Source of the DNA: a phage
Length of the DNA: 315 bases
Sequence record: KM389369.1
Strand: one strand, 5' to 3'
The notes below the pieces were generated by a model. The model was not told the origin of the DNA. It was given only the letters and a program-made list of their open reading frames with translations, and did no database searches. Shown in pieces: positions 1 to 315 of the stretch. How positions within the stretch are numbered: the first letter of the stretch is position 1; every line of letters begins with the position of its first letter. Made by a program: the position numbers and the translations under genes.

Positions 1-314
1 ATTACGTCCCCTAAGTCCCCCCGTAACGTTTTGGTTACGTCCCCTTTGGACCGGACCGGAACCGACCGGGTACCCCGGTTCCCCGGCCGTACGTTTCCCG
101 TCGGGTTACGTCGTACCGCACGCTGTCCGCCCAGCCTCAGCCATGTCTTGCATGAGTTGAACATCTCCCCACGCTTGTTAAGCATCTGCGGGTCAGTAGA
201 CGCGCCACCGAACGGAACAAGTTGCCATGTACGCCCCCAACCATCACCGATTGACTTCAAACCGGTTCCGTAACCGAAGTCGATGAACACCGCGTCAGCC
301 TGGTACTGGTCTTC
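1..314 (-). CDS. Partial CDS, hypothetical protein; frame open across the entire window (truncated at the 3' end, possibly also at the 5' end)
   Basis: Reverse-complement frame with codons ending at window 314, 311, ... has no stop in 104 codons; the other two minus-strand frames carry several stops. Translation (N to C): EDQYQADAVFIDFGYGTGLKSIGDGWGRTWQLVPFGGASTDPQMLNKRGEMFNSCKTWLRLGGQRAGRRNPTGNVRPGNRGTRSVPVRSKGDVTKTLRGDLGDV. The first ~60 residues (window ~140..314) have mixed hydrophobic/polar/aromatic composition typical of a folded protein; the remainder is R/G/N/V/T-rich and low complexity. An in-frame GTG at 288..290 (minus strand) preceded 8 nt upstream by AGG is a possible but weak start; otherwise the CDS begins beyond position 315. 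Third-codon-position GC is moderately enriched. No homology search was possible. Confidence 0.4.
2..45. repeat. Exact 11-bp direct repeat TTACGTCCCCT (2..12 and 35..45) with a degenerate tandem copy TAAGTCCCC (12..20)
   Basis: Read directly: 2..12 and 35..45 are both ttacgtcccct (33 bp apart, start to start). 3..11 tacgtcccc is followed immediately by 12..20 taagtcccc (1 mismatch), forming a tandem 9-mer pair. Confidence 0.7.
22..39. repeat. Short inverted repeat CGTAAC (22..27) / GTTACG (34..39) with 6-nt spacer GTTTTG
   Basis: Read directly; arms are exact reverse complements (6 bp). The right arm overlaps the second TTACGTC copy. The T-run lies in the loop, not 3' of the stem. Confidence 0.55.
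51..89. repeat. CCGG-dense dyad-symmetric tract: perfect 7-bp inverted repeat GGAACCG (58..64) / CGGTTCC (76..82) flanking palindrome GGGTACCC (68..75); five CCGG sites and one CGGCCG
   Basis: CCGG at 51..54, 56..59, 66..69, 75..78, 83..86; GGGTACCC at 68..75 is an exact 8-bp palindrome; CGGCCG at 84..89; reverse complement of 76..82 equals 58..64 exactly. Confidence 0.6.
104..112. repeat. Third copy of the TTACGTC core (GGTTACGTC, identical to 33..41)
   Basis: ggttacgtc occurs at 33..41 and 104..112; the TTACGTC core therefore occurs three times on the plus strand (2..8, 35..41, 106..112). Confidence 0.65.
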
Positions 315-315
315 A

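What the first reader, a model, noticed from the sequence alone, without database searches (positions are those of the whole stretch)
140..314. Minus-strand reading frame with a protein-like N-terminal segment carrying a hhhh-D-x-G / Gly-rich loop signature
The peptide ...DAVFIDFGYGTGLKSIGDGWGRTWQLVPFGGAS... has a hydrophobic beta-strand-like run ending in Asp, then a Gly-rich turn and a Lys. This pattern recurs at the first strand of RNase H-like and ASKHA (actin-like) folds, such as RuvC-type resolvases, terminase nuclease domains and ParM-type ATPases. I cannot discriminate among these or exclude an unrelated family; the resemblance is motif-level only. If the GTG at 288..290 is the start, the motif sits at the extreme N-terminus, as in ParM-like proteins.
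Basis: partly seen in the sequence, partly recalled or inferred. Interest (0 to 1): 0.45.

Follow-up and report, generated by a model that had tools for sequence, protein, structure and literature searches.

The report
Terminase fragment plus pyrosequencing noise tail
The reading frame is real but ordinary: it is an internal piece of the DNA-packaging enzyme (large terminase) of a common E. coli phage. The left 126 bases of the window are very probably the same gene garbled by a pyrosequencing base-calling error.

Summary
The minus-strand frame and the peptide are there. Window 127-315 is 96-100% identical in DNA to the large terminase (TerL) gene of phiV10/epsilon15-like E. coli phages (Uetakevirus). 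The peptide is identical to TerL residues 351-413 of 491, and all 7 nucleotide differences from phiV10 are synonymous. So the segment is internal, not N-terminal, and GTG 288-290 encodes Val359. The hhhh-D-x-G motif is the fourth beta-strand, not the first, of the C-terminal RNase H-like nuclease domain. Its Asp (D362, codon 281-279) aligns with Sf6 gp2 D296, one of the three Mg-binding acids. Homology stops abruptly at 126/127, and 1-126 matches nothing in any collection. In flow space (454 order TACG) it is the in-register native terL continuation (residues 414-437) plus about 0.5 signal unit of spurious signal per flow. The correlation is 0.62, rank 1 of 79,578 possible starts. The whole window takes 401 flows, close to one 400-flow GS FLX read. 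Verdict: a known gene plus a sequencing artefact. Low interest.

The parts
127..314 (-). Genuine coding sequence: codons E351-G413 of the large terminase subunit (TerL) of a Uetakevirus (phiV10/epsilon15-like) E. coli phage. This is the middle of the C-terminal RNase H-like nuclease domain. Base 315 is the third base of the F350 codon.
   Evidence: megablast 100% to KM389362 and 96-98% to phiV10, TL-2011b and prophages; identical to phiV10 TerL 351-413; only synonymous differences; PHROG 2 hit on the full-length protein at E 3.4e-52
279..293 (-). Codons A358-D362 (AVFID): beta-strand 4 of the nuclease domain. It ends in D362 (codon 281-279), the second metal-binding acidic residue.
   Evidence: AF2 strand E358-362, block pLDDT about 86-94; D362 invariant in 35 relatives of about 40% identity; aligned to Sf6 gp2 D296, which binds Mg2+ in crystal structures (PMC4678813)
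288..290 (-). The GTG proposed as a start codon. It is the internal Val359 codon.
   Evidence: position in phiV10 TerL; V359 invariant in alignment A1
261..278 (-). Codons F363-G368 (FGYGTG): the Gly-rich turn that begins the helix after strand 4 (helix 363-375).
   Evidence: G366, T367 and G368 invariant among close relatives; model helix H363-375; corresponds to Sf6 DGDGVGAG
135..176 (-). Codons K397-R410 (KRGEMFNSCKTWLR): the conserved 'N-K/R-R-A/G-E-M' helix of terminase nuclease domains.
   Evidence: model helix H397-410; aligned to Sf6 NKRAQFYYALADRL
1..126 (-). Base-calling artefact. The 72 native nucleotides that encode TerL M414-I437 (plus the third base of the G413 codon) are read with spurious extra bases in flow order T-A-C-G. 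It is not foreign DNA and not a real C-terminal extension.
   Evidence: 70% of run-to-run transitions follow TACG, against 34% in 127-315; in-register flow-space correlation with native terL 0.62, rank 1 of 79,578 starts; only the TACG order works; 66 of 72 native nt embedded in order; no match in any collection

Best explanation
The whole window is one stretch of the large terminase (terL) gene of a phiV10/epsilon15-like temperate E. coli phage, read on the minus strand. Bases 314-127 are correct sequence for residues 351-413. They cover strand 4, the following helix, strand 5 and the next helix of the C-terminal RNase H-like nuclease domain, which cuts concatemeric DNA during headful packaging. 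It ends in D362, which forms the two-metal active site together with D309 on strand 1 and D457 on a late helix, both outside the window. Bases 126-1 are not different DNA. They are the next 72 nt of terL (residues 414-437) as called by a flow-based sequencer (cyclic order T,A,C,G; most likely a 400-flow Roche 454 GS FLX read) after the signal baseline rose by about half a unit near flow 294. From there about half of the flows that should have been empty were called as a base and homopolymers were inflated, which stretched 72 nt into 126 nt. Shown here: the gene identity, the fold, the alignment of D362 to a catalytic residue, and the flow-space identity of the tail with native terL. Inferred: nuclease activity of this particular protein, the read direction, the platform, and the physical cause of the baseline rise.
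For: Gene identity: DNA and protein identity, synonymous-only changes; PHROG 2 terminase large subunit, E 3.4e-52, residues 21-480; prophage order terS-terL-...-portal-capsid. Fold: AF2, nuclease domain block pLDDT about 74-95; order b1 304-309, b2 318-324, b3 327-334, helix 340-353, b4 358-362, helix 363-375, b5 381-383; the 36 best Foldseek matches in the PDB are all large terminases, followed by an integrase and RuvC. Catalytic Asp: D309/D362/K442/D457 invariant and aligned to Sf6 D244/D296/K428/D444; profile E 3e-12; PMC4678813: that triad binds two Mg2+. Artefact: 53 of 76 transitions are step 1 in TACG order, against 48 of 140 in the real part; binomial 1e-10; 0 of 200,000 shuffles reach it; natural 126-nt windows reach at most 0.51 against 0.70 observed; the change-point at 118-126 coincides with the homology break; the Ion 'Samba' order does not fit; the in-register native continuation gives correlation 0.62, the best of 79,578 starts on both strands of 40 kb, with the next at 0.45 and a null sd of 0.10; 50 of 55 native-positive flows are positive against 27 of 53 native-zero flows; the five other flow orders give -0.01 to 0.19; the longest common subsequence (LCS) is 66 of 72 against a null of 54.6+/-2.3 with maximum 62; window call = native signal + about 0.5 at every signal level; Fisher p 4.5e-6; 401 flows with the TCAG key. 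PMC2872875 and PMC3045300: the 454 order is TACG, a GS FLX run has 400 flows, and noise rises towards read ends. The only 100% match is an UNVERIFIED GenBank contig with a Newbler-style name.
Against: The origin and platform of the window are not known to me, and no flowgram or quality values are available. The flow count is 401, not exactly 400. The onset is abrupt: 189 error-free bases, then noise. The first 27 flows after the break fit the native sequence poorly (correlation 0.20, 6 of 10 native-positive flows recovered), so something more than a uniform baseline shift happened there. Three larger contigs of the same GenBank series show no such tails. Nuclease activity of Uetakevirus TerL has not been tested experimentally as far as my searches show. 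Pfam, NCBIfam and PDB single-sequence searches do not recognise the protein, so the family assignment rests on PHROGs, a profile search and a predicted structure.
Confidence: 0.93

Rival explanations
1. Bases 1-126 are real foreign DNA joined to terL at 126/127. Candidates are the end of an unknown mobile element with repeated TTACGTCCCC-like binding sites inserted into terL, or a recombination or assembly chimera with an unsequenced genome.
For: Sharp breakpoint at 126/127. Repeated TTACGTCCCCT (2-12 and 35-45) and related GTTACGTCG (106-114), visible, recall multi-site transposase-binding ends. The frame stays open.
Against: No exact 22-24-mer in IMG/VR, 241 million metagenome records or 185,579 species genomes. 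No blastn hit in E. coli genomes or phages even at E 10, and only chance GC-rich hits in plasmids. A foreign sequence would not correlate in register with the native terL continuation in flow space (rank 1 of 79,578), nor contain 66 of the 72 native nt in order. The repeats are what successive T-A-C-G cycles with similar signals produce.
Confidence: 0.03
2. Bases 1-126 are a real, indel-riddled (pseudogenised) allele of the terL 3' part in a decaying prophage.
For: The tail is derived from native terL sequence. Frameshifted or truncated TerL fragments do exist in databases (P0004, P0010, P0020).
Against: The 54 extra bases fall specifically into the empty flows of the TACG dispensation order and as +1 on homopolymers. 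That pattern has a chemical meaning but no biological one: the other five cyclic orders give no signal, and the additive +0.5 holds at all signal levels. The 189 nt next to the tail carry no change at all relative to KM389362.
Confidence: 0.02
3. One reading: the peptide is the N-terminus, starting at GTG 288-290, of a ParM-like/ASKHA ATPase or of a stand-alone RuvC-type resolvase.
For: The motif-level resemblance hhhhDxG + Gly-rich loop. RuvC appears as a distant structural match.
Against: The frame continues upstream in all relatives, and the residue is the internal V359 of a 491-aa protein. That protein has an N-terminal Walker A/B ATPase domain (G78/K83 and D182/E183 invariant) and matches full-length large terminases. 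There are no ASKHA hits among the 50 matches listed.
Confidence: 0.01

Closest known systems
Large terminase subunit of Escherichia phage phiV10 (PhiV10p02, AAZ95895.1) and other Uetakevirus/epsilon15-like phages and prophages
   Same: 63 of 63 residues identical (351-413). DNA is 96.3% identical with only synonymous changes. The gene sits between terS and portal.
   Different: Nothing in 127-315. The apparent divergence in 1-126 is attributed to base-calling noise.
Shigella phage Sf6 gp2 large terminase and its nuclease domain gp2C (PDB 4IDH, 5C10, 5C12)
   Same: Same two-domain architecture and RNase H-like nuclease fold: Foldseek E 2e-12 for the full length, and TM 0.62-0.66 normalised to the target for the nuclease domain. 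The profile hit is E 3e-12. The acidic triad and the regulatory Lys align: D309/D244, D362/D296, K442/K428, D457/D444 (PMC4678813).
   Different: Only about 15-18% identity. There are long insertions in Sf6 between strand 5 and the C-terminal helices. The Sf6 metal ligand N441 is Gly454 in the Uetakevirus protein. A single-sequence search does not connect the two.
RuvC Holliday-junction resolvase / RNase H superfamily
   Same: The same core five-stranded sheet with carboxylates on strand 1, strand 4 and a C-terminal helix. RuvC structures appear at Foldseek E about 2e-3.
   Different: RuvC is a stand-alone dimeric protein of about 150-170 aa. Here the fold is the C-terminal domain of a packaging ATPase and carries extra helices and a beta-hairpin (430-439).
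Low-quality 3' ends of 454 pyrosequencing reads (noisy flows)
   Same: TACG dispensation order, 400 flows per GS FLX run and noise increasing towards read ends (PMC2872875, PMC3045300). The tail shows over-calls in empty flows and inflated homopolymers.
   Different: The onset is abrupt rather than gradual, and the stretch escaped quality trimming and entered a deposited or assembled sequence.

Membership tests
Phage large terminase subunit (TerL) | Significant profile match over the full length of the protein | tested here: met
   The full-length homologue (phiV10 TerL, identical to the window over 351-413) hits PHROG 2 'terminase large subunit' at E 3.4e-52 over residues 21-480. Pfam and NCBIfam give no hit. 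The 104-aa window translation alone hits nothing.
Phage large terminase subunit (TerL) | N-terminal ASCE ATPase with Walker A (G-x-x-G-K-S/T) and Walker B (hhhhDE) | tested here: met
   GHGIGKS at 78-84 and VVFDEAS at 179-185. G78, K83, D182 and E183 are invariant in 35 relatives. This lies outside the window and was tested on full-length homologues only.
Phage large terminase subunit (TerL) | C-terminal RNase H-like nuclease fold | tested here: met
   AF2 block pLDDT about 74-95 over 290-470 with the order b1-b2-b3-a-b4-a-b5. Foldseek matches the nuclease domains of Sf6, E217 and G20c at target-normalised TM 0.57-0.66.
Phage large terminase subunit (TerL) | Acidic metal-binding triad of the nuclease site | tested here: met
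   D309, D362 and D457 are invariant and align to Sf6 D244, D296 and D444. Only D362 (codon 281-279) lies in the window. Catalysis itself is not testable with these tools.
Phage large terminase subunit (TerL) | Gene context next to the small terminase and portal genes | tested here: met
   phiV10 and the APEC O1 prophage show terS immediately upstream, and portal and major capsid genes downstream. The window itself is too short to show context.
ParM-like / ASKHA (actin-like) ATPases | Phosphate-1 motif (hhhhDxG) on the first strand at the extreme N-terminus of a duplicated RNase H-like fold | tested here: not met
   The motif lies at residues 358-368 of 491, on the fourth strand of a single RNase H-like domain. 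There is no ASKHA structure among the 50 Foldseek matches listed.
Stand-alone RuvC-type resolvase | An independent protein of about 150-190 aa with its first-strand Asp near the N-terminus | tested here: not met
   The domain is fused to a packaging ATPase in a 491-aa protein. RuvC matches are weak (E about 2e-3, query-normalised TM 0.14-0.17).
Flow-sequencing (454) base-calling artefact | Extra bases follow the nucleotide dispensation order T-A-C-G | tested here: met
   53 of 76 transitions are step 1, p 1e-10. Natural windows reach at most 0.51 against 0.70 observed. The other orders and the Samba order fail.
Flow-sequencing (454) base-calling artefact | The underlying true template remains recoverable in flow space, in register | tested here: met
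   Correlation 0.62 at offset 0, rank 1 of 79,578. From flow 321 on, 44 of 45 native-positive flows are recovered. Only the TACG order works.
Flow-sequencing (454) base-calling artefact | Read length compatible with the instrument's number of flows | tested here: inconclusive
   401 flows with the TCAG key, against 400 for GS FLX (PMC3045300). This is one flow too many, and the key and the single-read origin are assumptions.
Flow-sequencing (454) base-calling artefact | Low quality values or noisy signals in the raw flowgram | not testable with these tools
   No SFF file, quality file or provenance is available for the window.

The most novel reading that the evidence does not exclude
Bases 1-126 are real DNA: either an unknown element or junction inserted after codon 413 of terL, or a bizarre insertion-riddled allele. 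That would truncate the nuclease domain before K442 and D457 in a phage that is otherwise identical to a known one.
Probability: 0.03. Interest if true: 0.3.

Novelty: already known. Interest (0 to 1): 0.05.

Why it matters
Biologically there is little new. The fragment belongs to a well-populated terminase family: 9042 representative clusters at 50% identity, and a match in 506 of 5426 complete E. coli genomes. Its motif is the expected catalytic strand of the nuclease domain. The practical point is data hygiene. About 40% of this 315-base record is base-calling noise that keeps a reading frame open. An automatic pipeline would therefore call a chimeric protein with a novel 41-residue tail, or report a 'novel junction' inside terL. 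The flow-space comparison used here projects both the suspect and the reference sequence onto the TACG dispensation order and correlates them. It is a simple way to recognise such tails in old 454-era records, where BLAST sees no similarity at all.

Tried and rejected
1. Pfam and PHROGs on the 104-aa window translation gave no hits.
2. Pfam, NCBIfam and PDB sequence searches with full-length phiV10 TerL and with its C-terminal 211 aa gave nothing significant, only a spurious glucanase at E 0.3. Family assignment therefore needed PHROGs, a profile built from distant relatives and a predicted structure.
3. I first read 1-126 as a possible transposon end or other foreign DNA because of the TTACGTCCCC repeats and the ...CTGT terminus. 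Exact-word scans of viral, metagenome and genome collections with two different 22-24-mers, blastn at word size 11 against E. coli, phages and plasmids and Rfam all found nothing. The flow-space test then made the idea unnecessary.
4. An intein or other insertion at the break was considered, because 812-814-aa TerL relatives exist. Their insertion is in the Walker A loop, not at residue 413.
5. Ion Torrent 'Samba' flow order does not fit.
6. A second template on a mixed bead was tested by correlating the residual signal with all starts in 40 kb of prophage. The best value was 0.47, about 4.8 sd among 79,578 tests, so not convincing. A mixed bead would also have spoiled the first 293 flows.
7. 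I looked for the same artefact at the ends of three larger contigs of the KM389xxx series and found none.
8. Literature searches for the KM389xxx/Phi05 data set found no paper. A search for the 454 'mixed/positive flows' filter found nothing useful.

Full report
**1. What is in the sequence**

The window is 315 nt. Translating the minus strand from base 314 gives 104 codons with no stop:

EDQYQADAVFIDFGYGTGLKSIGDGWGRTWQLVPFGGASTDPQMLNKRGEMFNSCKTWLRLGGQRAVRRNPTGNVRPGNRGTRSVPVRSKGDVTKTLRGDLGDV.

The other two minus frames are broken.

**2. Identity of 127-315**

- Megablast against phage records finds 15 records, all matching window 127-315 or 133-315 at 95.8-100% identity. Where the record is annotated, the gene is the 'terminase large subunit' of Uetakevirus phages such as phiV10, TL-2011b and vB_EcoP_ZX5.
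- The same stretch occurs in 506 of 5426 complete E. coli genomes, nearly always on the chromosome, that is in prophages.
- In phiV10 the gene encodes 491 aa, and the window peptide equals residues 351-413.
- All seven nucleotide differences from phiV10 and all three from the APEC O1 prophage are synonymous. This frame is therefore the one under selection.
- In phiV10 and in the APEC O1 prophage the gene lies just downstream of terS and upstream of the portal and major capsid genes.
- The segment is internal. The frame continues upstream (…AKRIADF|EDQYQ…), and GTG 288-290 is Val359, which is invariant among close relatives.

**3. Is the protein really a terminase, and what is the motif?**

Curated sequence libraries are blind to this family:

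- Pfam and NCBIfam give no hit for the full-length protein.
- There is no PDB sequence hit.
- The window fragment alone hits nothing.

Three other lines of evidence do identify it:

- PHROG 2 (terminase large subunit) matches residues 21-480 at E 3.4e-52.
- An exhaustive HMMER search finds 9042 representative clusters. In 35 of them, at about 40% identity, the invariant residues include G78 and K83 (Walker A), D182 and E183 (Walker B), and D309, D362, K442 and D457.
- An AlphaFold2 model of P0025 (491 aa, 99% identical to phiV10 and identical over the window) has block pLDDT of about 74-95 over the C-terminal domain.

The order of elements in that C-terminal domain is:

| Element | Residues |
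|---|---|
| β1 | 304-309 |
| β2 | 318-324 |
| β3 | 327-334 |
| helix | 340-353 |
| β4 | 358-362 |
| helix | 363-375 |
| β5 | 381-383 |
| helix | 397-410 |

Foldseek against the PDB returns only large terminases as its 36 best matches: Sf6 gp2 at E 2e-12, the PhiV-1 terminase, T4 gp17, D6E, HK97, and the isolated nuclease domains of Sf6, E217 and G20c at target-normalised TM 0.57-0.66. After them, at E about 2e-3, come an HIV integrase and RuvC. No actin-like fold appears among the 50 matches listed.

The profile of the 35 relatives hits the Sf6 gp2 nuclease domain by sequence at E 3e-12. A residue-level hmmalign map gives:

| This protein | Sf6 gp2 |
|---|---|
| D309 | D244 |
| D362 | D296 |
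| K442 | K428 |
| D457 | D444 |

Zhao et al. 2015 (PMC4678813) show crystallographically that D244, D296 and D444 of Sf6 gp2C bind the two catalytic Mg2+ ions in an RNase H-like fold.

The Gly-rich stretch FGYGTG is the turn into the next helix. The fold class was guessed correctly. The strand number, the N-terminal position, the GTG start and the ParM option were not.

**4. The break at 126/127**

Every DNA match stops at 127. The native gene continues …GGMLDDQETADD…, whereas the window reads …GGQRAVRRNPTGNV…. No protein among 5.8 billion carries that tail. Bases 1-126 match nothing:

- blastn at word size 11 and E ≤ 10 finds nothing in E. coli genomes or phages, and only short chance hits to GC-rich Streptomyces plasmids.
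- Two exact 22-24-mers are absent from IMG/VR, the metagenome contigs and the 185,579 species genomes.
- There is no Rfam family.

**5. What 1-126 is**

Written as homopolymer runs, the stretch walks round the cycle T→A→C→G. That is the nucleotide dispensation order of 454 pyrosequencing (PMC2872875; PMC3045300).

*The flow-order signal:*

- 53 of 76 run-to-run transitions are single steps in that order. In 127-315 the figure is 48 of 140, and no other cyclic order is enriched.
- The binomial probability is 1e-10, and none of 200,000 shuffles reaches the observed value.
- 16,470 natural 126-nt windows from phage and prophage DNA reach at most 0.51, against 0.70 observed.
- A change-point fitted on this statistic alone falls at 118-126, which coincides with the homology break.
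- The Ion Torrent 'Samba' order does not fit.

*The decisive test.* I projected both the window and the native terL continuation onto TACG flows, starting from the last shared base.

- The two flowgrams correlate at 0.62. Among 79,578 alternative start points on both strands of 40 kb of prophage, the in-register native continuation ranks first. The next best is 0.45, and the null is 0.00 ± 0.10.
- 50 of 55 flows that are positive in the native sequence are positive in the window, against 27 of 53 native-empty flows (Fisher p 4.5e-6).
- From flow 321 on, 44 of 45 native-positive flows are recovered.
- The window call equals the native signal plus about 0.5 at every level: 0→0.53, 1→1.50, 2→2.60, 3→3.5.
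- With any of the other five flow orders the correlation is -0.01 to 0.19.
- In plain base space, 66 of the 72 native nucleotides occur in order inside the 126-nt tail. The null is 54.6 ± 2.3, with a maximum of 62 in 3000 trials.

The tail is therefore the native codons 414-437, inflated by spurious calls in empty flows and by +1 calls on homopolymers.

*Supporting points:*

- With the standard TCAG key, the whole minus-strand sequence needs 401 flows. A GS FLX run has 400 (PMC3045300). This is suggestive of one full-length untrimmed read or a set of duplicates, but it is not exact.
- The only 100% match for 127-315 is an UNVERIFIED GenBank contig with a Newbler-style name, KM389362, 'Phi05_1387 B clone contig00003'.

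*Caveats:*

- No raw data or provenance is available.
- The onset is abrupt, and the first 27 flows after the break fit the native sequence poorly.
- Larger contigs of that GenBank series are clean.
- The read direction (minus strand, noise at the 3' end) is inferred from how such reads usually degrade. The TACG order is its own reverse complement, so the flows cannot tell the direction.

**6. Other features of the window**

The 80-aa plus-strand ORF at 31-273 is antisense to the conserved terL frame over 127-273 and lies in the artefact over 31-126. I regard it as spurious, as I do the two short minus-strand ORFs. No RNA family was found.

**7. Comparison with what is known, and novelty**

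The real part is an already known gene, identical at protein level to phiV10 TerL. Its mechanism is inferred by homology to Sf6 gp2: a headful-packaging ATPase whose C-terminal RNase H-like domain cuts DNA by two-metal catalysis, with D362 as one ligand.

The membership tests for TerL are met on full-length homologues: profile match, Walker motifs, nuclease fold, acidic triad and gene context. The window contains only the part around D362. ParM/ASKHA and stand-alone RuvC membership tests fail.

The tail is a technical artefact, not a feature of the genome. The residual probability that 1-126 is real DNA is about 5% in total.

**8. Verdict**

- Novelty: already known.
- Interest: 0.05. The main value is the warning that 40% of the record is noise that mimics an open reading frame.

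Noticed in passing
not in the window; proteins P0027-P0048, e.g. P0028 and P0030: Many TerL relatives that are 94-98% identical are 812-814 aa long instead of 491. They carry a roughly 323-aa intein-like insertion with a LAGLIDADG_3 domain (PF14528) inside the Walker A loop: GHGIGK|ALRPDD...IVTHN|SAFIS. The representative search also shows many 780-880-aa members whose match is split at residue 83, so the P-loop is a recurrent insertion site in this family.
   Followed up: partly
full-length homologue of window 127-314 (phiV10 TerL, L001:2766-4238, minus strand): This large TerL family (9042 representative clusters at E<=0.001) is invisible to Pfam-A and NCBIfam, and to single-sequence PDB searches. 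PGAP labels some copies 'hypothetical protein'. Only PHROG 2, a custom profile and structure prediction identify it.
   Followed up: yes
L002/L006 = KM389362.1, record end: The only 100%-identical record ends inside terL, just 110 nt beyond the point where the window degenerates. The window and that contig may come from the same fragmented 454 assembly, with terL at a contig break.
   Followed up: partly
window 1-315 read on the minus strand with a TCAG key: The complete sequence consumes 401 TACG flows, one more than the 400 flows of a GS FLX run. This is close enough to suggest a single untrimmed full-length read, but I cannot explain the extra flow.
   Followed up: partly
window 100-126 (read flows 294-320): The first 27 flows after the break fit native terL poorly (correlation 0.20, 6 of 10 positive flows recovered), whereas later flows fit well (0.55-0.81). 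Something more than a uniform baseline rise happened at the onset. Possibilities are a transient phase slip or a fluidics event.
   Followed up: no
P0025 residue 454, outside the window: The position that aligns with the Sf6 gp2 metal ligand N441 is Gly in the E. coli Uetakevirus TerL (SPGKGD). At least 90% of the 35 more distant relatives have Asp there (SPDxAD).
   Followed up: no
P0122 (619 aa): A predicted protein fuses a replication-protein-like N-terminus (PF06992) to TerL residues of about 106-491. This is probably a prophage rearrangement or a misassembly.
   Followed up: no
window 31-273, plus strand: An 80-aa TTG-initiated ORF runs antisense to terL and into the artefact region. It is most likely spurious.
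   Followed up: partly
L003 19017-19093 (APEC O1 prophage): A tRNA-Arg gene sits between terL and the portal gene in the Uetakevirus-like prophage.
   Followed up: no
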